64,000 nucleotides of DNA. Source: an uncultured Candidatus Saccharibacteria bacterium (GTDB lineage: Bacteria > Patescibacteriota > Doudnabacteria > UBA920). Shown in pieces: positions 2,063 through 61,918 of the stretch; within the stretch, counting starts at the first letter, position 1, and each line of letters begins with the position of its first letter. The notes below the pieces were generated by a model, which saw only the letters and a program-made list of their open reading frames with translations, made no database searches and was not told the origin of the DNA. Position numbers and translations under genes: made by a program. The stretch spans positions 40,619 through 104,618 of the forward strand of contig CAYVNU010000002.1 in assembly GCA_964453265.1 (NCBI GenBank), read 5' to 3'.

Positions 2063-2107
2063 AGTTTAAAGTATAACAAATTCTAGGCATTTTGCCGATT
2101 AAATGTT

Positions 2108-2133
2108 AAAGGCTCAACATAGGTTGAGCCTTT
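2108..2133 (-). terminator. Terminator hairpin
   Basis: aaaggctcaac-ata-ggttgagccttt, a perfect 11-bp stem. Confidence 0.45.
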
Positions 2134-2159
2134 AACTATAACTTAATCTATTTAAACAA

Positions 2160-19555: not shown

Positions 19556-19559
19556 AAAT

Positions 19560-22058: not shown

Positions 22059-22074
22059 TTACAATGATTAAATT

Positions 22075-22102
22075 AAAAACCCTCTTAAATAAGAGGGTTT
22101 TT
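22075..22102 (-). terminator. Terminator hairpin downstream of secF
   Basis: aaaaaccctcttaaataagagggttttt. Confidence 0.5.
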
Positions 22103-22118
22103 AAAAAAAAGATTACAC

Positions 22119-29754: not shown

Positions 29755-29762
29755 AATTAAAA

Positions 29763-30032
29763 TTATTTTTGTTCTTCTGGTTTTGCTGCCTTTGCCTTTT
29801 CTAATTCATCTATAGCTTCATTGATTTTTTTGCTGTAATCCTGCACTTCCTGGCGTTTAGTGGTTAAATATTCAGCAATGGTTTTCGGGTCTGCCTTAGT
29901 CATTAAAGCTAAAATCGCAATAAATGCTGAATTCGTAACTAAATTTCTGTCCATTGCTTGCATGTGACTGGCTATTTCGTATAAAGCCATTTCGGTTTTA
30001 GTCGGTTGTTTTTGCTTAAAATCATTTGCCAT
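29763..30032 (-). CDS. Hypothetical small helical protein (89 aa)
   Basis: ORF lying between the HD hydrolase and the CYTH genes. Confidence 0.45.
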   Translation of the reverse strand: MANDFKQKQPTKTEMALYEIASHMQAMDRNLVTNSAFIAILALMTKADPKTIAEYLTTKRQEVQDYSKKINEAIDELEKAKAAKPEEQK

Positions 30033-30109
30033 AAAGTTATGGTGCCTTTCGTATTAATTTAATACCTTCCACTCCGTAAATAAAAAATTATTTAATAAAT
30101 TTTGATTAA

Positions 30110-43498: not shown

Positions 43499-44614
43499 TT
43501 ATGAATTAATATTATTAATAATATCTTTAGCTGTTTGCTGCCAAGTCAATTTTTCCGCAACTTTAGCTGCATTTTTTGTTAATTCTAGGCAAAGCCCCTT
43601 ATTACTCAACATAAGCGAAATTGAATCGCTAATTTCGTTTATATTATACGGATTAACAAGCATCCCGCCATTTTCAATTATTTCCGGTAGTGAAGTAACG
43701 TTACTAACTAAAACAGGAGTGCCACATGCCGCAGCTTCCATAGGCTGAAAACCAAAACCTTCATAATAAGAAGGGTAAGCCAATATTTGAGCCAACTTAA
43801 TAATAGCAGGTTTATCATTTTGAGGAACATACCCTAAATATTTTATTTTGTGTTTTTTAGGGCTGGCGTTAATAGCATTAAATACCTCGGAATACTTCCA
43901 GCCTTTCCTGCCGGCAATTACTAATGAACAAGGCAATTTAAGATTTTCAAACGCTTTAATTAAACTTAATAAATTTTTTCTGGGCTCTATTGTGTTCAAA
44001 AATAAAATATAATTACCAGGTAAGCCGTATTTATTTCGTGTTTGCCTTAATTTTTCCGAAGAAATTTCTGAATTAAATAATTTTTTATCAATACCCGGAT
44101 AAACTACCTGAATTTTATTTGGGTCTAGCGAAAAAACTTTAATTAAATCTGATTTTGTATATTCTGAGACGGCAAAAATTTTATCAGCTCTCGCGAACGC
44201 ATTTTTATAGTTTAAAAATTTATGCCACAATTGCCTTTTTAGGTCGTAAAATTCCGGCGTAATAACCGGAGACAAGTCATGTACTGTTAAAAACAGTTTG
44301 GCTTTTTTGGAAATATTGAATTGATTTAAATTAGGCATATACAATACATCAAAGTCGCCAATTAATTTTTCCAAGGTCAAAAGTTTTAATTTAAAAAGCA
44401 AATTTAAAAGTTTATTTGGCCAACGAGTTATTTTAATTTTTGCATTTATGTAATGAAACTCGGGCAACTCTGTCTTATAAAATGAATTAAAAAACAGCGT
44501 ATAGGAATTATTCCTATCTTGTTTTAACATATTGTCCAGCAGGTTTAAGGTATAATTCTCCACGCCCGAAACGCTGCCGGAAGATAAACTTCTTAAATCA
44601 ATCGCGATTTTCAT
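43499..44614 (-). CDS. Glycosyltransferase family 4
   Basis: EGFGFQPMEAAACGTPV motif. Confidence 0.8.
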   Translation of the reverse strand: MKIAIDLRSLSSGSVSGVENYTLNLLDNMLKQDRNNSYTLFFNSFYKTELPEFHYINAKIKITRWPNKLLNLLFKLKLLTLEKLIGDFDVLYMPNLNQFNISKKAKLFLTVHDLSPVITPEFYDLKRQLWHKFLNYKNAFARADKIFAVSEYTKSDLIKVFSLDPNKIQVVYPGIDKKLFNSEISSEKLRQTRNKYGLPGNYILFLNTIEPRKNLLSLIKAFENLKLPCSLVIAGRKGWKYSEVFNAINASPKKHKIKYLGYVPQNDKPAIIKLAQILAYPSYYEGFGFQPMEAAACGTPVLVSNVTSLPEIIENGGMLVNPYNINEISDSISLMLSNKGLCLELTKNAAKVAEKLTWQQTAKDIINNINS

Positions 44615-45677
44615 ATTTAATACTATCTCTAATAGAATTTTTAAACTTTTCCTTGCTAAATTTTACAGATTGTTGCTTTAAACCATTCAAACTAAATTTT
44701 TCCACTTCCCAGTTTAAAATAAGCTTTTTAATTTTTTCTTTGTCATAATTTTCAAACAACTCCCCAGTTACGCCGGGTACAACTGTTTCTAAAGCTCCGC
44801 CTTTGGCGTAAGCTAAAGTGGCCGTTCCGCAAGCAGCCGCCTCTAGCGGCATAAGGCCAAAATCTTCAACCTGGGGGTAAATAAAGCCTAAGGCTCCACT
44901 ATATTCGTCCCTGAGCTTAGCATCATCCACCGCTCCTAAAAATAGAATATTTGGCTTTGCAATTCCTCTTAAATACTCCGCTTGCCTGCCGGTGCCAACC
45001 ACATGAAGTAGCAAGCCAAGTTCATTAAATATTTCCACTATAAGTTCGTTATTTTTATGCGGCTGAAGTCGTCCGGCAATTAAAAAGTAATCCTGTTTTT
45101 CTACGGTTTTCTGCCAAAAATTAACATCGACACCCGGGTACACTACCGTACTAGTACACTGATAAACAGATAAAATGCGTTTTTGGACTTCTATTGAATT
45201 AGCAATAAATTGTGTAACGCGCTTTGACCCCGCCAAATCCCACTTGCGCATTTTACTAAGAAGATATTTTACAAATGGTCTTAATAAAAAAGGCACTTCT
45301 TGCTTTACGTAATTTTTATCTATCCACAAAAATCTGGGCGGCGTGTGACAATAGCAAATATGTTTAACGGTTTTAGGAACACGAATATTTTTTACAAACC
45401 CAGAACTGGACGAAATAACAACATCAAAGCCGCTAAAATCTAATTGGTCAACAGCCCAAGGTATCCAGGGCAAAAGGTATTGAAACTTGCCCAAGGCTAA
45501 ATACAAAGTCTGCAGCGGCGAAGTTCGAATGTCCCAAGTCTTATATTTTTCCTTAAACTTTGGATCAAAAACCAAAGTAAAAACAGGCGCGCCTGGAAAA
45601 AGTTCGTGGAGATGTTCAACCACGCGCTCCGCTCCTCCCATTTGAGTAAAACTGTCATGGACAATAGCAATTTTCAT
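44598..45677 (-). CDS. Glycosyltransferase family 4
   Basis: FGLMPLEAAACGT motif. Overlaps the downstream GT gene by 17 nt. Confidence 0.8.
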   Translation of the reverse strand: MKIAIVHDSFTQMGGAERVVEHLHELFPGAPVFTLVFDPKFKEKYKTWDIRTSPLQTLYLALGKFQYLLPWIPWAVDQLDFSGFDVVISSSSGFVKNIRVPKTVKHICYCHTPPRFLWIDKNYVKQEVPFLLRPFVKYLLSKMRKWDLAGSKRVTQFIANSIEVQKRILSVYQCTSTVVYPGVDVNFWQKTVEKQDYFLIAGRLQPHKNNELIVEIFNELGLLLHVVGTGRQAEYLRGIAKPNILFLGAVDDAKLRDEYSGALGFIYPQVEDFGLMPLEAAACGTATLAYAKGGALETVVPGVTGELFENYDKEKIKKLILNWEVEKFSLNGLKQQSVKFSKEKFKNSIRDSIKYENRD

Positions 45678-45681
45678 AGAT

Positions 45682-45773
45682 TTACGAAATACGAAATATT
45701 ACGAACTTACGAATCGCAAGTTTGAGCGACGAATTAATATTCGTACGTTCGTACTGATTCGTACTTCGTAAAT
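45682..45773. promoter_or_regulatory. 92-bp inverted array: four TACGAA repeats, a 13-bp centre, then four TTCGTA repeats with the same 2/4/2 spacing
   Basis: ttacgaaatacgaaatattacgaacttacgaatcg...cgaattaatattcgtacgttcgtactgattcgtacttcgtaa. Fills the whole gap between the sugar transferase stop and the GT4 start. Confidence 0.5.
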
Positions 45774-45774
45774 T

Positions 45775-47226
45775 CTAATAATCTTCCCTAGCCCGGTTAC
45801 CAAACACTAAAAGCCAAAAACTTTTTGCAAGAATTTTTATATCTAAACCCAAAGACCAATTTTCAATGTAGTAAGTATTAAGCCTAATTTCTTCTTCAAA
45901 CGGCAAGTCAGGAAAATTAACCTGCGCCATTTGCGACATTCCAAATATTCCAGGCTTTATACTAAACATTCTTCTATAGCGGTTTCTGTAGCGCTCAACC
46001 TCGTCTAAAACATGCGCCCTTGGGCCAACCATGCTCATATTGCCAATTAACACATTCCAAAACTGCGGGATTTCGTCTAGCTTAGTTTTTCGTAAAAAAC
46101 GGCCGACCGGAGTTACGCGCGGGTCATGTTTGATTTTTAAAAACGGGCCGTCTTTGCCGCCGCGATCATTTTTTTGCCAAAGTTCTTTTCGCACCTTTTC
46201 CGCCTGCTCCCCACCGTAACCTTCACCCACGGAAAGATGCTGATACATAGTTCTGAATTTATAAAATTTAAAGTCTTTCCCCCTGCCCCCTCGCATAGCA
46301 GAATAAATAACTTTGCCTTTGCTATCTAACTTAATGGCAATAGTAATTATTAAAAACAAAGGACTGGTTAAAACTAAACAAACTAAAGAGGCTAAAATAT
46401 CTAACAGTCTTTTAGCTACTCTGCCCCAACCGTCCAGCGGAGTATTTTTTAACCCAATAACCGGCACACCCTGAAGACTAGAGAGTTCAACAATATTTCG
46501 CTGTGCTTCAAATAAATTTGGGACAAAGCTAAACTGAAGCCCTTTGTTTCTTGCAAACTGTACTAAATCTAAATTTGCTTCGTCGTCTAGAGCAGGATTG
46601 GCTTGCAAAATTTCGTCAATTTTATTTTCAGAATACAATAGTTCAAGCTTATTTAATAAACTACTGTCATAATTTAATTCAGCAACCACAGCATAGCCAT
46701 GCTTTTTATTTTTATAAATTCTTTCAAGTATTGAAGTTTCCATAGCTTCCCCTCTTATTACAGCCAGCCTATGAAGCCCGATCCCCTGTTGAAAAAAATA
46801 TTCCTGAAAAAGCTTAAGCGTAACTCGGCCAAAAAATAAAAAAATAATTCCCAAACCCCAAGCAGCTAAAATAATAAACCGGGAGGGAAAAATATCTAAA
46901 AAGAAGTTTTTGTTGAAAAAGAAAAGTAAAATTATAATTAATAAACTCAGTGAAATAGCCGTAATAATTTTGCCCAGCTCCATAGCAAGACTGCGAGTAC
47001 TTCTTAAATTATAAAGCCCAAATAATGCTAAAATTATTAATAAAACCGGAATAGTTTTAAGACTTAAAAGAAAAAAGTCGTGAAATTGTAGTTTAAAGGC
47101 AAGCGGAATTTTAGCCACCACACCTGAGCTAATTCGCAAATAAAAAGACGCTACTCCTGCAAGTAAGAGCATGGCGGCATCGGTAGGAATTGCCGCAATA
47201 TTAAAAAGTAATTCACTTCGTTTCAT
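45775..47226 (-). CDS. Polyprenyl-phosphate hexose-1-phosphate transferase (WbaP/CpsE-type bacterial sugar transferase)
   Basis: N-terminal TM block, a central domain, and the C-terminal catalytic domain KFRTM...DEIPQF.NVL.G.MS.VGPR. Confidence 0.85.
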
Positions 47227-47375
47227 CCCGTTATAAATTTAGGATTAAATATTAAAAATCACCTTACTTTGACCCTTAAAACACACCCGTTAGATAATAA
47301 CTTCTAGCGGGATAAATCCTCTGTATTATACTGAATTTCCTTGACAAAAACAAGTTTTTTTGGTACCCTAAATGG

Positions 47376-47768
47376 GTTCTTAACAAACCGAATAATCGCT
47401 TTCCCGATTCATATCGGGAGGGAGGAAAGTCCGAACACTTATTTGATAGCCTCTTAAGAGTTATCAAAATTGGTAACGGGTAACGCCCGTATGGAGCAAC
47501 CCGCCGTCGCGTAAAGCTATGGCGAGCCAAGCCACGAGATGCGAACAGAAACGATTAAATCCGAAAGGGTTTAATATCCCCAAAGGGTAACCTTGGGATG
47601 TTCCGGTAGTAACACCGGAGTGAAACGGCTAAATTCTTACCTGAGTGCAAGGCCAAATTTGGTAGGCTGCTTGATCCCGGCAGTAATGTCTGGGGCAGAT
47701 AGATGATTATTTTTTCCGCCGTAAGGCGGGATGTTAAACAGAATTCGGCTTATGAGTTTGTTAAGAGC
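47376..47768 (+). ncRNA. rnpB: RNase P RNA, bacterial type A
   Basis: Contains the conserved blocks GGGAGGGAGGAAAGTCCGAACAC, GGGTAACGCCCGT...CAACCCGCCG, ACAGAAACG, GGAGTGAAACGG and GAGTGCAAGGCCAAATTTGGTAGGCTGCTTGATCCCGG...ACAGAATTCGGCTTATGAG. P1 pairs cttaacaaac with gtttgttaag. A TTGACA -35 hexamer lies at 47341. Confidence 0.85.
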
Positions 47769-47775
47769 ATAAAAA

Positions 47776-47807
47776 ATCCACTCCGATTTACGGAGTGGAT
47801 TTTTTTC
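47776..47807. terminator. Bidirectional terminator after rnpB
   Basis: atccactccg-attta-cggagtggat followed by ttttttt. Confidence 0.6.
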
Positions 47808-47849
47808 TGTAGGCATCTGTTGTGTATTTTCCTTTGTAATTCTGTAGTT

Positions 47850-54242: not shown

Positions 54243-54632
54243 TTAGGTCTTTTCAGATGCATTTTTTCTACCGCTTCCAGCAGTCTTTCTAACATTACCT
54301 CTTCTGGTTCTAGAATTAGTTTTAGTTCTCTGACCTCTGACCGGTAAACCTTTTATATGCCTAATGCCTCTATAACTCTGAATTTCCTTCATTCTTTTAA
54401 TATTAAGTAGAACCTGCTGTCTCAATTCACCTTCTACTTTAAAACTTTTTTCAATAAATTCTCGGATTTTATTTAACTCAGCTTCAGACAAATCTTTAGT
54501 GCGCTTATTTGGGTCAATGTTCGTAGCTGCCAAAATTTTCTTTGACAAGGTTAAGCCTACGCCATAAATATAAGGCAATGCCGCTTCAATTCTCTTTTCA
54601 TTTGGAATATTAATACCTGCGATACGAGCCAT
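54243..54632 (-). CDS. rpsM: 30S ribosomal protein S13
   Basis: [26 protein letters not shown]. Confidence 0.9.
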
Positions 54633-54725
54633 GTTATATTTGATAATTTATAATTAATAACTAATAACTTAAAAACCTTAAGGCTTAGAAATTACCAATT
54701 AATAATTATTAATTGGGTTTAAAAA

Positions 54726-58665: not shown

Positions 58666-60594
58666 CTACTTAATCACCGCTTTTATTCTGCGCACACCAG
58701 CGCTACTAGCTTCTTCTTTTTGTATTTTAAAAGTGCCAATCACTCCGGTATGTTCAACGTGTGGGCCGCCGCAAAATTCTCTTGAAACAACCTCGCCTGA
58801 TGATTCATCATAAACCGTATAAATAGACACAGTATCTGCATACTTTTCGCCGAACACGCCAATAGCGCCTAGACTTCTTGCTTCTTCTAAGCTCATAGTT
58901 TCGCGCTTTACTTTCAAATCACTAGCTATCCAGTCGTTAACTAAAGCTTCCACTGCGGCAATTTCTTCCGGGGTCATTTTTTTGTCATGAGTAAAATCAA
59001 ACCTAGTTCTTTCTTCTGTTATATTACTCCCCTTTTGCCACACGTTGTCACCTAAAACCTGACGCAGCGCTGCATTCATAAGGTGAGTTGCTGTATGAAG
59101 GCGCACGATTTTGTCTGAATGTGATGCCAAACCGCCTTTAAATTGCCCAGCACTAGCTGTGCGTGATAGCTCCTGATGTTTTTTAAATTCTGTTTCAAAT
59201 TCTTTATGATCAATTTTTTGCCCCATACTTTCGGCTAACTCTTTGGTTAATTCCCAAGGGAAGCCATATGTTTGATACAAATCAAAAGCATCTTTACCCG
59301 ATATTCGGGTCATTTGCCTGCCTACCGGCAAGGCAGAGACATTATTCGCAGATTCAGATCCCGACATTAGTTTTTCAAACTCTTTCAAGCCCTTGTCTAA
59401 AGTTGTTTCAAATTTTTTTTGCTCTTCTAGAATTACAGCGAAAATTTGTTCGGAATTTTCTACAAGTTCCGGGTAAGACTGGGCGTAAATAGCAATAACT
59501 TTACCAACCAAAGCTTCTAGCCAATGTCCTTGAAAATTAAGTAGCTTGGCCATAACCATTGTCCTTCTAAGCAGTCTTCGCAAAAAATACCCACGGTCTT
59601 TGTTAGAAGGCGCAACACCGTCGCTCACCATAAAAGTACCTGCTCTTATGTGGTCAGCTATAATTCTAACTTTTTTTACTTCATCACCCGAAAGTATTTC
59701 ATTACCTCTGCCTAAAGACTCGTACATTACGTCAAACAAAGGTTTAAAAACATCTGTATCAAAAACCGCCTGCTGTCCAACTGCAGCCGCCAAAATTCTT
59801 TCAAGCCCTCCACCAAAATCCACATTTTGTTGTTTTAACTTTTCAAACCCATTTTCAGTTTTAACGTATTCCATAAATACGTTATTGCCAATTTCCACAA
59901 ACCTACCACAGTCGCAATTAACATGACAAACGCTATTTTTAAATTCCGATTTTTCATGAATTTGCAAATGCGCCCCGTAGTCCCAAAACATTTCACTGTC
60001 CGGGCCACCGGGTTCGCCTACCGGCATATTTTTTGTAACACCCGCTCTTGACCACCAATTTTTTTCTTCAGGATAATAAAAAATCCTACCGCCCTGCATT
60101 CCATCACGCTCAGGAAAATCAATGATGCGCGAATCAATCCCTTTTGCTTCAAACAAGCCCTGCCAAATTTTGGCTGACTCATCATCTCGCGGGATTTTTA
60201 TGTCTTCTTTTCCCCTAAAAACAGTAACGTACAAATTTTTTGGATCAAGCCCCACTTCTTTGGTTAAGAACTCAAACATCCAGGGAATTTGTTCTTTTTT
60301 AAAGTAGTCACCTAAAGACCAATTGCCGAGCATTTCAAAAAACGTGATATGACGATTATCGCCAACTTCTTCTATATCTTGAGAACGAAAGCATTTTTGT
60401 GAATCTACAATTCTTGTACCTTTGGGGTGCTCCGCGCCAAGTAAGTAAGGTACCATAGGCTGCATTCCACTTCCCGTAAAAAGTGTTGTTGCATCATTCT
60501 CCGGCACCAAAGATGCCGAAGGGATAATGGTGTGTCCTTTGGATTTAAAAAATTCAAGATATTTAGAACGTAGTTCTTGTGCGGTAATTTTCAT
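58666..60594 (-). CDS. alaS: Alanine--tRNA ligase, short form lacking the C-terminal C-Ala domain
   Basis: Class II core (FTGSGMQP, HxxxH editing motif HTATHLMNAALRQVLG). 642 aa, against about 870 in canonical AlaRS. Confidence 0.9.
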   Translation of the reverse strand: MKITAQELRSKYLEFFKSKGHTIIPSASLVPENDATTLFTGSGMQPMVPYLLGAEHPKGTRIVDSQKCFRSQDIEEVGDNRHITFFEMLGNWSLGDYFKKEQIPWMFEFLTKEVGLDPKNLYVTVFRGKEDIKIPRDDESAKIWQGLFEAKGIDSRIIDFPERDGMQGGRIFYYPEEKNWWSRAGVTKNMPVGEPGGPDSEMFWDYGAHLQIHEKSEFKNSVCHVNCDCGRFVEIGNNVFMEYVKTENGFEKLKQQNVDFGGGLERILAAAVGQQAVFDTDVFKPLFDVMYESLGRGNEILSGDEVKKVRIIADHIRAGTFMVSDGVAPSNKDRGYFLRRLLRRTMVMAKLLNFQGHWLEALVGKVIAIYAQSYPELVENSEQIFAVILEEQKKFETTLDKGLKEFEKLMSGSESANNVSALPVGRQMTRISGKDAFDLYQTYGFPWELTKELAESMGQKIDHKEFETEFKKHQELSRTASAGQFKGGLASHSDKIVRLHTATHLMNAALRQVLGDNVWQKGSNITEERTRFDFTHDKKMTPEEIAAVEALVNDWIASDLKVKRETMSLEEARSLGAIGVFGEKYADTVSIYTVYDESSGEVVSREFCGGPHVEHTGVIGTFKIQKEEASSAGVRRIKAVIK

Positions 60595-60670
60595 ATGAGT
60601 AAGTAGTGGGTAGCGAATAGTAGGTAGCCAAACTTGTATGGCTAGATTACTACTTACTACCTACTATTAG

Positions 60671-61918
60671 CTATCTAACTATTTCTTCTAACGCTTTTTC
60701 CATTTGAGCGTCTTTGTTATTTTTAGCGTCTTCTTCTGTAATGGAAACTTTTACATCCGGTTCAAGTCCGTCTTTATTTAAATTCTTACCGTTTGGAGTT
60801 ATCCATTTGGCAATAGTTACTTTAACCGCGCTACCGTCTCTTAAATCTACCAATTCTTGCACACTGCCTTTACCAAAAGATTTTTCTCCGACTAATTTTG
60901 CAATTTTATAATCATGCAAAGCTCCGGATAAAATTTCCGCTGCCGAAGCACTGCCGCCGTTTATTAAAACTACAGTTGGCATATTCGCAAAACGGCTGGC
61001 TCCTTCTGCTTTGTAAACGGTGTTTTCGCCCGTGCTTTTTGCTTCAGTTACTACAGTCGTGCCACTCTTAAGCCAGTTAGAAGCCACAGCCACAGCAGTT
61101 TGCAAATAACCGCCCGGGTCATTGCGCAAATCTAAAACCAAACCTTCCGCGTTGTGGTTTAAAGCCTCGGTAACTGCCTGGTTAAAAAGCCCTTCTGTGT
61201 CATCGCCGAACTTAGACAGTGTAATAACCGCAATATTTTTTTTCTTACCATCTTTTTCAACAGTCTTAAATTCCCACTTTACACTTTTAACTTTTATAAC
61301 ATCTCGGATAATTTTTACATCAAAAGGCTTGTCTTTACCTTTTCTATAAATAGTCAAATTAACCGGAGTGCCTTTTTGACCGCGAATTTTTCCCACGGTT
61401 TCTTCCACTGACCAATTCTCGGTAGATTGCCCATCTACTTTAACAATAATGTCCTGAGCTTTTAACCCGGCTTTTTGCGCCGGACTTTCATCTAATGGAG
61501 CCACAATCACAATTAAACCGTCTTTTTTAGAAATTTCAGCGCCAATACCGTCAAAGCTGCCTTTTAAATCGGTTTTAAAGCTTTGCAAAGCTTTAGGTTC
61601 AAAAAAATCCGTGTAAGGGTCACCGGTAGATGCTACTGCGCCGCGAATCGCCCCGTATAAAACTTTTTGAGGGTTAACTGGCTTATCTATATATTTGGTG
61701 TCTAAAATATTTATGGCATCCCATAGTAAATTGTAGTCAACAACTTTAGGCTGATCTTGCTTGCTAATTACCTTAAAAGTTTTTGGTTCAAAAACCAAAC
61801 CTTTTTTCCCGGCTGCAAAACCCACTCTGTAGCTAATAGCCAATAAAGCAATAAAAAGTACAGCTATTCCGATTTTTTTCTGATTTTTCTTTGCAATTTC
61901 CTGATAATTTGTTTCCAT
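60671..61918 (-). CDS. ctpA: Carboxyl-terminal processing protease (S41 family, CtpA-like)
   Basis: N-terminal TM helix, a PDZ domain, and the S41 catalytic region GGSASAAEILSGAL. Confidence 0.85.
   Translation of the reverse strand: METNYQEIAKKNQKKIGIAVLFIALLAISYRVGFAAGKKGLVFEPKTFKVISKQDQPKVVDYNLLWDAINILDTKYIDKPVNPQKVLYGAIRGAVASTGDPYTDFFEPKALQSFKTDLKGSFDGIGAEISKKDGLIVIVAPLDESPAQKAGLKAQDIIVKVDGQSTENWSVEETVGKIRGQKGTPVNLTIYRKGKDKPFDVKIIRDVIKVKSVKWEFKTVEKDGKKKNIAVITLSKFGDDTEGLFNQAVTEALNHNAEGLVLDLRNDPGGYLQTAVAVASNWLKSGTTVVTEAKSTGENTVYKAEGASRFANMPTVVLINGGSASAAEILSGALHDYKIAKLVGEKSFGKGSVQELVDLRDGSAVKVTIAKWITPNGKNLNKDGLEPDVKVSITEEDAKNNKDAQMEKALEEIVR

What the first reader, a model, noticed from the sequence alone, without database searches (positions are those of the whole stretch)
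45682..45773. A 92-bp inverted array of four TACGAA repeats per arm fills the gap between the sugar-transferase and glycosyltransferase genes
The left arm is TTACGAA-at-ACGAA-atat-TACGAA-ct-TACGAA. The right arm is its mirror, TTCGTA-c-G-TTCGTA-ctga-TTCGTA-c-TTCGTA, with the same 2/4/2 spacer lengths, around a 13-bp centre. It occupies the entire intergenic space inside what looks like one polysaccharide operon. It could form a very long imperfect RNA hairpin, acting as an attenuator or processing site, or it could be an iterated operator for a repeat-binding regulator. Nothing like it occurs elsewhere in the window.
Basis: seen in the sequence. Interest (0 to 1): 0.55.

Follow-up and report, generated by a model that had tools for sequence, protein, structure and literature searches.

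The report
Dispersed TACGAA palindrome filling an intercistronic gap
The 92-bp inverted TACGAA array is real and is one copy of a dispersed family of hairpin-forming repeat elements that sit between the stop and start codons of neighbouring genes in candidate-phyla-radiation bacteria, with arms kept almost unchanged while silent sites in the flanking genes have diverged by about half.

Summary
Two 35-nt arms (45680-45714 and 45739-45773) each carry four exact TACGAA hexamers. They fill the 97-nt gap between a sugar-transferase gene and a GT4 gene, both on the minus strand. The predicted RNA fold is about -40 kcal/mol (z -7 to -9). Three details were wrong: spacers are 1/4/2, the centre is 24-26 nt, and a second hairpin of the same build lies at 60595-60670.

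It is not specific to this operon. A covariance model built only from TACGAA palindromes in other genomes finds this element at E=1e-10. Those copies lie between unrelated gene pairs such as uvrB-uvrA and rpsH-rplF. They share the irregular 7/10/8 spacing, and some genomes hold several copies. In 22 of 24 arrays the TACGAA arm comes first.

The arms are strongly conserved: 94/97 identical against a relative whose four-fold sites are 55% identical. A second lineage repeats this. Relatives with 89-93% identical flanking proteins carry unrelated repeat hairpins at the same junction.

Best reading: a REPIN/MITE-like palindromic element. Once transcribed it forms a long stem with no U-tract, flush with the stop and start codons, in a genome with almost no Shine-Dalgarno sites. 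Its effect on expression is inferred. An operon-specific operator is not supported.

The parts
45739..45773 (-). 5' arm in the mRNA sense (right arm on the + strand): UACGAA-G-UACGAA-UCAG-UACGAA-CG-UACGAA, starting 2 nt after the upstream stop codon
45715..45738 (-). Central 24 nt between the arms. It contains a degenerate fifth unit (ACGAA at 45729-45733 on the + strand) and a predicted inner 5-bp stem with an 8-nt loop. Only 1 change against L002.
45680..45714 (-). 3' arm in the mRNA sense (left arm on the + strand): UUCGUA-AG-UUCGUA-AUAU-UUCGUA-U-UUCGUA, ending 3 nt before the GT4 AUG
45679..45774 (.). Whole element as matched end to end by covariance model R1, which was trained only on copies from other loci (66.9 bits, E=1.3e-10; both strands score alike)
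45775..47226 (-). Upstream gene: polyprenyl-phosphate sugar transferase (PF02397 plus CoA_binding_3). Its TAG stop (45775-45777) pairs into the base of the stem.
44598..45677 (-). Downstream gene: GT4 glycosyltransferase, ATG at 45675-45677, no Shine-Dalgarno motif upstream

Best explanation
The element is one copy of a dispersed, REPIN/MITE-like palindromic repeat family of Patescibacteria. Each arm is four TACGAA hexamers at fixed 7/10/8 spacing. The arms face each other as 5'-TACGAA...TTCGTA-3' around a variable centre. Copies occupy the few-nucleotide gaps between the stop and start codons of co-transcribed genes. Shown: family membership; occurrence at unrelated gene junctions and in several copies per genome elsewhere; an empty versus filled orthologous site; very strong conservation of the arms; a strong orientation bias; a very stable predicted hairpin without terminator features. 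Inferred: the arms are kept by a trans-acting factor that reads the hexamer array on folded or duplex DNA, for example the enzyme that copies the element, or by selection on the transcript. Also inferred: once transcribed within the operon mRNA, the roughly 33-bp stem does not terminate transcription. It could act as a barrier to 3' exonucleases or as a double-strand RNase substrate. It buries positions -3 to about -97 upstream of the GT4 start in a genome that has essentially no Shine-Dalgarno sites. GT4 translation would then depend on ribosomes terminating at the sugar-transferase stop codon, 2 nt from the stem base, which is held next to the AUG.
For: Family membership: model R1 was built from 9 elements of other loci, excluding the window and L002. 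It hits window 45679-45774 full-length at 66.9 bits, E=1.3e-10, and this is the only hit in the window. Unrelated contexts: TACGAA palindromes lie between uvrB-uvrA (L183), rpsH-rplF (L205), bPH-gap (L140), hyp-pyk (L116) and hyp-TrwB-like (L170). None of these sits at a sugar-transferase/GT4 junction. Copy number: L205 has three copies in 14 kb with near-identical arms and unrelated loops. L170 has two full palindromes plus a weak third model hit. L155 has one palindrome plus two single-orientation arrays. Empty versus filled site: L170 is syntenic with the window, and its 129-nt filled gap corresponds to the 4-nt gap at window 19556-19559. Architecture: 7/10/8 | 8/10/7 spacing recurs in the window, L002, L205 (three copies) and L155, and 8/11/8 in L170. 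TACGAA-first orientation holds in 22 arrays against 2 (p=3.6e-5). Conservation: window versus L002 gives 94/97 identical in the IGR against 153/279 identical four-fold sites (Fisher p=7e-17), and divergence resumes at the stop and start codons. Replicate: L170 versus L212 gives 77 arm nucleotides identical where four-fold identity is 0.73 (p about 2e-11), while the loop is replaced. Lineage range: Doudnabacteria and a Nealsonbacteria-like genome. RNA consequences: fold -42.3 kcal/mol; no U-tract or terminator consensus; canonical terminator elsewhere; almost no SD motifs upstream of 53 ORFs.
Against: Only one TACGAA copy was found in about 74 kb of the source genome, so multi-copy status is unproven for this genome. 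No target-site duplication was seen (inspection of flanks). No transposase appeared among the 38 window ORFs scanned. A single arm is not itself a palindrome, unlike a REP unit. The window copy lacks the terminal CTAC/GTAG seen in L205, L155 and L170. The loop is also conserved against L002 (1 change in 24), which arm recognition alone does not explain. There is no transcribed-strand signature: sense and antisense fold equally well across 26 such hairpins, 13 against 13. This test is weak, because an inverted repeat gives nearly the same hairpin from both strands. Relatives at 89-93% protein identity have unrelated repeat hairpins at the same junction. Simple vertical conservation does not predict that.
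Confidence: 0.55

Rival explanations
1. An operon-specific cis-regulatory RNA hairpin (processing, stability or attenuation site) that evolved in place to set the ratio of the initiating sugar transferase to the downstream glycosyltransferases.
For: The fold is very stable. The element is strongly conserved against L002, loop included. The orthologous junction is enriched for such hairpins. Twelve junction IGRs of 66 nt or more, from 33 Doudnabacteria-type loci plus the window and the partial locus L041, fold with z -3.5 to -8.6. A strict repeat detector flags 6/33 junctions against 5/138 other co-directional junctions (p=0.0075). TACGAA units recur at this junction in L009, L013 and L014.
Against: The same element family, with the same irregular spacing, sits in ribosomal, DNA-repair and glycolysis gene junctions of other genomes. 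There is no U-tract and no alternative-structure logic. No Rfam family matches. L003 and L004 hold unrelated hairpins, and many relatives have 0-34-nt gaps at the junction.
Confidence: 0.15
2. A neutral by-product of replication slippage plus intrastrand template switching: short tandem units multiply and are mirrored onto the other arm, with no function and no mobility.
For: The second window hairpin (60595-60670) differs from its 94%-identical relative by rearrangement of whole units in one arm. Many different units occur at the same junction and within one genome. Inverted short-tandem-repeat arrays of many units are common in unrelated metagenome contigs. Inverted heptamer pairs are reported in Xanthomonas (PMC4692102).
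Against: The arms are 97-100% identical where neutral sites are 55-73% identical. The same irregular 7/10/8 spacing and the NTGA spacer recur in different genomes and junctions. All mismatches avoid the cores. The orientation bias is 22:2.
Confidence: 0.15
3. An iterated DNA operator bound by a transcription regulator that controls the polysaccharide operon.
For: The hexamer cores are perfect, the spacers are variable and the spacing is fixed.
Against: The array lies between a stop and a start codon with no promoter-like site. No regulator gene is among the neighbours. The spacing of 7/10/8 is not in helical phase. The same array occurs in unrelated operons. Close relatives use other units at this junction.
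Confidence: 0.05
4. An intrinsic (Rho-independent) transcription terminator separating two transcription units.
For: It is a long stable stem directly after a stop codon.
Against: The stem is AU-rich and is followed by AAAUCUAUG, with no U-tract, and the start codon of the next gene follows after 3 nt. Canonical GC-rich, U-tailed terminators exist in this genome and in relatives.
Confidence: 0.03

Closest known systems
REP / REPIN elements (repetitive extragenic palindromes; inverted REP doublets mobilised by RAYT transposases)
   Same: Both are dispersed, hairpin-forming and intergenic, mostly between co-directional genes and just downstream of stop codons. Both form inverted doublets with a more variable spacer. 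Both occur in several families per genome and are long-lived and conserved. Several relatives end in CTAC...GTAG, like GTAG-tagged REPs (PMC3733652).
   Different: A single arm is not a palindrome here. The arms are arrays of four hexamers with fixed irregular spacing. The stems are AT-rich. The window copy lacks the GTAG tag. No RAYT was seen. Copy number in this genome appears low.
Inverted pairs of tandem heptamer repeats in Xanthomonas (GGGAATC) and cyanobacterial short tandem repeats
   Same: Short tandem units sit in convergent inverted pairs in intergenic regions, able to form stem-loops, and the repeat type is conserved between species (PMC4692102). The higher-GC TACGAA arrays in the metagenome scan are perfect heptamers of this type.
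   Different: In the window the units are hexamers separated by non-repeating spacers (7/10/8), not head-to-tail heptamers. There is no G-quadruplex potential. Different loci of one genome use different units.
MITEs (miniature inverted-repeat transposable elements)
   Same: Both are about 100 bp, made almost entirely of two terminal inverted repeats, with dispersed non-coding copies and filled versus empty orthologous sites.
   Different: No target-site duplication was recognised, and no parent insertion sequence with the same ends is known.
Intercistronic RNase III processing hairpins (for example phage T7 early mRNA sites)
   Same: Both are long imperfect double-stranded stems with internal loops between cistrons of one transcript.
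   Different: This is a functional analogy only. No cleavage data exist here, and the sequence family occurs in both orientations and many operons.

Membership tests
REP/REPIN | The unit (one REP) is itself a short imperfect palindrome of 20-40 nt | tested here: not met
   Single arms fold no better than shuffles (z -0.5 to -1.7, or no structure at all)
REP/REPIN | Two units in inverted orientation with a short, more variable spacer | tested here: met
   35-nt arms with a 24-nt centre. The arms are conserved but the loops unrelated among the L205 copies and between L170 and L212.
REP/REPIN | Conserved terminal GTAG (or CGTC) tag | tested here: not met
   The window copy ends ...TTCGTAAAT (GTAA). 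The copies in L205, L155, L170, L140 and L096 end ...TTCGTAG(G).
REP/REPIN | Many dispersed copies within one genome | tested here: inconclusive
   One copy in 64 kb plus 10 kb of the source genome. Three copies in 14 kb in L205; two full palindromes plus a weak third model hit in L170. The whole genome was not available.
REP/REPIN | Cognate RAYT (Y1/HUH) transposase in the genome | not testable with these tools
   None among the 38 window ORFs scanned against Pfam.
MITE | Terminal inverted repeats | tested here: met
MITE | Target-site duplication flanking each copy | tested here: inconclusive
   No shared direct repeat was seen at the flanks of the three L205 copies, the L170 copies or the window copy. 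The empty and filled sites are too diverged to align.
MITE | Autonomous element with matching ends | not tested
Intrinsic terminator | G+C-rich stem followed by a U-tract | tested here: not met
   The stem is AU-rich and the tail is AAAUCUAUG. The consensus scan finds no terminator spanning the element; its only hit there, a small internal stem at 45722-45704, is one of 2 in the scanned region against 3.8 expected from shuffles.
Inverted tandem short-repeat pairs (Xanthomonas type) | Head-to-tail short units in convergent inverted pairs in intergenic DNA | tested here: inconclusive
   The convergent inverted pair is met. Perfect head-to-tail repetition is not met in the window (7/10/8 with non-repeating spacers), but it is met in the higher-GC TACGAA arrays (7/7/7).
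Integron attC site | R''/R' core sites (RYYYAAC ... GTTRRRY) and an integron integrase nearby | tested here: not met
   No such cores in the sequence. No integrase among the scanned neighbours.
Known RNA families (Rfam 15) | Match at or near a family's gathering score | tested here: not met
   No gathering-level hit at the element. The permissive scan gives only generic long-hairpin miRNA models at 15-18 bits against gathering scores of 48-119.

The most novel reading that the evidence does not exclude
TACGAA palindromes, and the sister families with other units, could be the cis sites of an undescribed trans-acting system of Patescibacteria. In this reading a protein reads four hexamers at fixed 7/10/8 spacing on a folded-back strand and keeps the arms unchanged while silent sites drift by 27-45%. 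By holding a stop codon and the next start codon together at the stem base, it would govern termination-reinitiation (a shunt-like hand-over of ribosomes) in operons of organisms that lack Shine-Dalgarno initiation.
Probability: 0.12. Interest if true: 0.8.

Novelty: new variant of a known kind. Interest (0 to 1): 0.5.

Why it matters
Patescibacteria have tiny, tightly packed genomes with little room for non-coding DNA. Yet roughly 100-nt palindromes fill stop-to-start gaps in core operons for ribosomal proteins, DNA repair, glycolysis and cell-envelope synthesis. Their arms are conserved more strongly than the flanking coding DNA. That points to an active maintenance mechanism or a function, neither of which is described for this group as far as the searched literature shows. 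Because the organisms lack Shine-Dalgarno sites, a stable stem abutting a start codon should strongly shape translation of the downstream gene. These elements are therefore candidate determinants of expression ratios within operons. They could also serve as markers for strain typing and for tracing genome dynamics in uncultured lineages. The pattern of arms either unchanged or replaced by an unrelated repeat hairpin is unexplained.

Tried and rejected
1. Genome-wide TACGAA signal in the window. Outside the element the hexamer occurs at chance frequency. Three copies at 29932-30048 lie in a probable small ORF, not a regulatory array.
2. Transcribed-strand test. Sense and antisense MFE and G-U counts over 26 co-directional hairpins show no bias. 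I later realised the test has little power for inverted repeats.
3. Recombination breakpoint at the junction. The flanking genes remain orthologous on both sides in L003 (93% and 85%), so replacement of the hairpin is not a cassette swap at this point.
4. Dispersed copies of the other hairpin types. blastn-short within the held loci found none, but the held data were selected for TACGAA, so this is uninformative.
5. Extending the source genome. One flank gave 10 kb with no further copy; the other flank protein was not on record.
6. Testing the second window hairpin for the same conservation. It is not conserved in the same way; its 3' arm is rearranged.
7. Rejected on sequence or scan evidence: attC site, CRISPR, riboswitch or attenuator, DNA-uptake sequence, promoter.
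8. Literature searches for a described equivalent in Patescibacteria found none. The closest papers are on REPs and on Xanthomonas heptamer pairs.

Full report
THE OBSERVATION

The window is about 35% G+C, and nearly all genes are on the minus strand. At 45680-45714 and 45739-45773 there are two 35-nt arms, 86% complementary, separated by 24 nt.

Each arm holds four exact copies of TACGAA (TTCGTA on the + strand in the right arm). Their starts are at 45683/45690/45700/45708 and 45740/45748/45758/45765. This gives start-to-start spacings of 7/10/8, mirrored by 8/10/7.

These are 8 of the 30 TACGAA copies in the window. The window total is what chance predicts (28.8), so the excess is purely local.

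The element fills the 97-nt gap between two minus-strand genes. Upstream is a PF02397 sugar transferase (45775-47226), whose TAG stop adjoins the element. Downstream is a GT4 glycosyltransferase (44598-45677), whose ATG follows it.

The minus-strand RNA folds at -42.3 kcal/mol (z -7.3) and the plus strand at -36.6 (z -5.4). The IGR alone gives z -8.6 and is the most structured IGR in the window.

All five non-Watson-Crick positions in the arms fall in the spacers, none in the cores (p=1.2e-4).

The claim of uniqueness also fails for the architecture. At 60595-60670, between an S41 peptidase gene and alaS, there is another stop-to-start hairpin built from inverted short repeats of a different unit.

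WHO CARRIES IT

The flanking sugar transferase identifies the organism as Candidatus Doudnabacteria or a close relative, within the Patescibacteria.

ORTHOLOGOUS JUNCTIONS

I collected the same junction from close relatives and from species-representative genomes.
- L001 is identical to the window.
- L002 (95% protein identity) has the same element with three substitutions.
- L003 (93%) and L004 (86%) have hairpins of unrelated sequence, again built from short repeats (GCTGAT/GCTTAC and ATGACAAAA). Both are significant folds.

Across 33 Doudnabacteria-type loci plus the window and the partial locus L041:
- Twelve junctions have IGRs of 66-111 nt, and all of these fold with z -3.5 to -8.6.
- Their units differ by species: GATATT, GCTAGTT, ACAGAT, GCGGAT, TTAGGT, CGCTGAA.
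- TACGAA recurs in L009 and L013, and as a direct-only array in L014.
- Junctions of 50 nt or less have no structure.

With a strict repeat detector the junction is enriched, 6/33 against 5/138 other co-directional junctions (p=0.0075).

The same architecture also occurs at other junctions of these genomes, such as rplQ-rplM and rplM-rpsI, with yet other units, even within one genome. The class is therefore general and the unit is not tied to the junction.

THE TACGAA TYPE IS A DISPERSED FAMILY

About a quarter have the inverted partner array nearby.

None is at a sugar-transferase/GT4 junction. The low-GC examples lie between uvrB-uvrA, rpsH-rplF, a bPH-domain gene and gap, a hypothetical gene and pyk, and a hypothetical gene and a TrwB-like gene. 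Most sit flush between a stop and a start codon.

Copy number in other genomes:
- L205 has three copies in 14 kb of a ribosomal-protein operon, with near-identical arms and unrelated loops.
- L170 has two full palindromes, plus a weak third hit to the covariance model.
- L155 has one palindrome plus two single-orientation arrays.

L170 is syntenic with the window (TrwB-like protein 64% identical). Its filled 129-nt gap corresponds to a 4-nt gap in the window, TAA-ATTT-ATG at 19556-19559. L170's protein clusters with proteins named Nealsonbacteria/Parcubacteria, so the family spans at least two Patescibacteria lineages.

The irregular 7/10/8 | 8/10/7 spacing recurs in the window, L002, the three L205 copies and L155. 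L170 uses 8/11/8. Higher-GC contigs carry regular 7/7/7 heptamers.

In 22 arrays (18 loci) the TACGAA arm precedes the TTCGTA arm, against 2 with the opposite order (p=3.6e-5).

As a leave-out test I built a covariance model from nine elements of other loci. It finds the window element full-length at 66.9 bits, E=1.3e-10. This is the only hit in the window, and both strands score alike.

CONSERVATION

Between the window and L002:
- Four-fold degenerate sites of the two flanking genes are 55% identical (153/279).
- Whole-gene nucleotide identity is 86% and 83%.
- The 97-nt IGR is 94/97 identical (Fisher p=7e-17).
- Divergence resumes right at the stop and start codons.
- The centre is also conserved, with 1 change in 24.

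An independent replicate comes from L170 versus L212 (95% protein identity, four-fold identity 0.73):
- 77 arm nucleotides have no change (p about 2e-11).
- The loop is replaced.
- A 71-nt GC-rich double hairpin is nested inside one arm.

L210, at 89% protein identity, has a different repeat hairpin (TAGATT units) at that junction. This mirrors L003 and L004 in the window's clade. The pattern is that arms are either unchanged or replaced wholesale.

The second window hairpin behaves differently. Against a relative with 94% nucleotide identity in the upstream S41 peptidase gene, one arm has whole units rearranged.

WHAT IT IS NOT

- Not a canonical terminator. There is no U-tract, and the consensus scan finds no terminator spanning the element, only a small internal stem (45722-45704) in a region with fewer such sites than shuffles give. 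A typical GC-rich, U-tailed terminator exists at 22059-22118 and in relatives.
- No promoter consensus.
- No Rfam family.
- No attC cores, and no regulator or transposase among the 38 window ORFs scanned.
- A single arm is not palindromic, so it is not a classical REP unit.
- No further TACGAA copy in about 74 kb of this genome.

HOW IT MOST LIKELY WORKS

Shown: it belongs to a dispersed palindromic family whose arms are under strong constraint and whose polarity is fixed.

Inferred: the arms are maintained because something reads them. That could be the machinery that copies such elements, as with REPINs and their RAYT transposases, or a selective requirement of the transcript.

Inferred: because the element is inside an operon, it will be transcribed and will form a stem of about 33 bp.

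The genome has almost no Shine-Dalgarno motifs; upstream regions are A/U-rich. A stem ending 3 nt before the AUG and starting 2 nt after the previous stop should therefore block independent initiation. It would make translation of the GT4 gene depend on ribosomes terminating at the stem base. It could also serve as an exonuclease barrier or a double-strand RNase site.

The sense/antisense comparison shows no strand preference (13 against 13). This test has little power, because an inverted repeat gives nearly the same hairpin from either strand.

COMPARISON WITH KNOWN SYSTEMS

The closest known kinds are listed below, followed by how this element differs from them.
- REP/REPIN elements: GTAG-tagged palindromes, mostly between co-directional genes, often as inverted dimers (PMC3733652).
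- Convergent inverted pairs of tandem heptamers in Xanthomonas (PMC4692102).
- MITEs.

This element differs in three ways. Its arms are hexamer arrays with fixed irregular spacing rather than small palindromes. No transposase or target duplication has been seen. Different loci of one genome use different units. I therefore file it as a new variant of a known kind.

I found no description of such elements in Patescibacteria in the searchable literature. That search does not cover subscription journals.

VERDICT

The feature is real and statistically robust. The operon-specific regulator reading is not supported. The conserved-or-replaced evolution of the arms and the stop-to-start placement in a genome without Shine-Dalgarno sites deserve follow-up.

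Noticed in passing
window 60595-60670: A second stop-to-start hairpin built from inverted short repeats (UAGUAGG/UAGUAAG... | ...CUACC/CUACU) lies between an S41 peptidase gene (60671-61918) and alaS (58666-60594). In a relative with 94% nucleotide identity in the S41 gene, the 3' arm has whole units rearranged while the 5' arm and loop differ by 2 substitutions.
   Followed up: yes
window 47227-47849: The 623-nt non-coding stretch upstream of the sugar-transferase gene is 84% identical to L002 over 620 aligned nt, although four-fold sites are only 55% identical. It contains an 84-aa ORF (47276-47530) with no Pfam match. Its content (promoter, small protein or RNA) is unexplained.
   Followed up: partly
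window, all 53 ORFs of 100 aa or more on the minus strand: Almost no Shine-Dalgarno-like motif occurs within 30 nt upstream of start codons. The leaders are A/U-rich instead.
   Followed up: partly
L212 1080-1150: A 71-nt GC-rich double hairpin (CCCCAG...CUGGGG, -42.8 kcal/mol) is nested inside the 3' arm of a TACGAA palindrome that is otherwise identical to its L170 ortholog. This suggests a second kind of small insertion element that targets these palindromes. No other copy was found in the held loci.
   Followed up: partly
L093, L095, L114, L136, L149, L175, L185 (metagenome loci): Contigs of 40-69% G+C picked up by the TACGAA scan also carry inverted arrays of other 6-7-nt tandem units (for example CCAGGTT|AACCTGG, TGAAACA|TGTTTCA, AATTGTT|AACAATT). 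Hairpins made of inverted short tandem repeats with several units per genome are therefore widespread beyond Patescibacteria.
   Followed up: no
window 2063-2159: A strong non-repeat hairpin (-32.8 kcal/mol, z -6.3) lies in the 97-nt gap between an unannotated ORF (2160-2879) and a GTPase gene (1496-2062). It has no U-tract directly after it.
   Followed up: no
window 54600-54697 (minus strand): Rfam Alpha_RBS (alpha-operon ribosome-binding-site leader) hit just above its gathering score (39.2 against 38 bits), upstream of the ribosomal-protein and rpoA gene block.
   Followed up: no
window 29755-30109: This gap between ORFs probably encodes a small protein of about 89 aa (MANDFKQKQ...). Three TACGAA copies there lie within that reading frame and are unrelated to the palindrome.
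   Followed up: partly
L003 772-827; L011 82-155 and 560-641: The rplQ-rplM and rplM-rpsI junctions of two Doudnabacteria genomes carry repeat hairpins (units TACAGA, TATTTC, ATTAAC). The window's rplM-rpsI gap is only 13 nt. This looks like another recurrently occupied junction.
   Followed up: partly
window 45678-45774 (minus strand): Read in frame past the sugar-transferase TAG, the element is open for 30 codons and ends at a UAA 4 nt before the GT4 AUG. The L013 element is likewise open in frame. This is probably a by-product of the unit sequence and was not tested.
   Followed up: no
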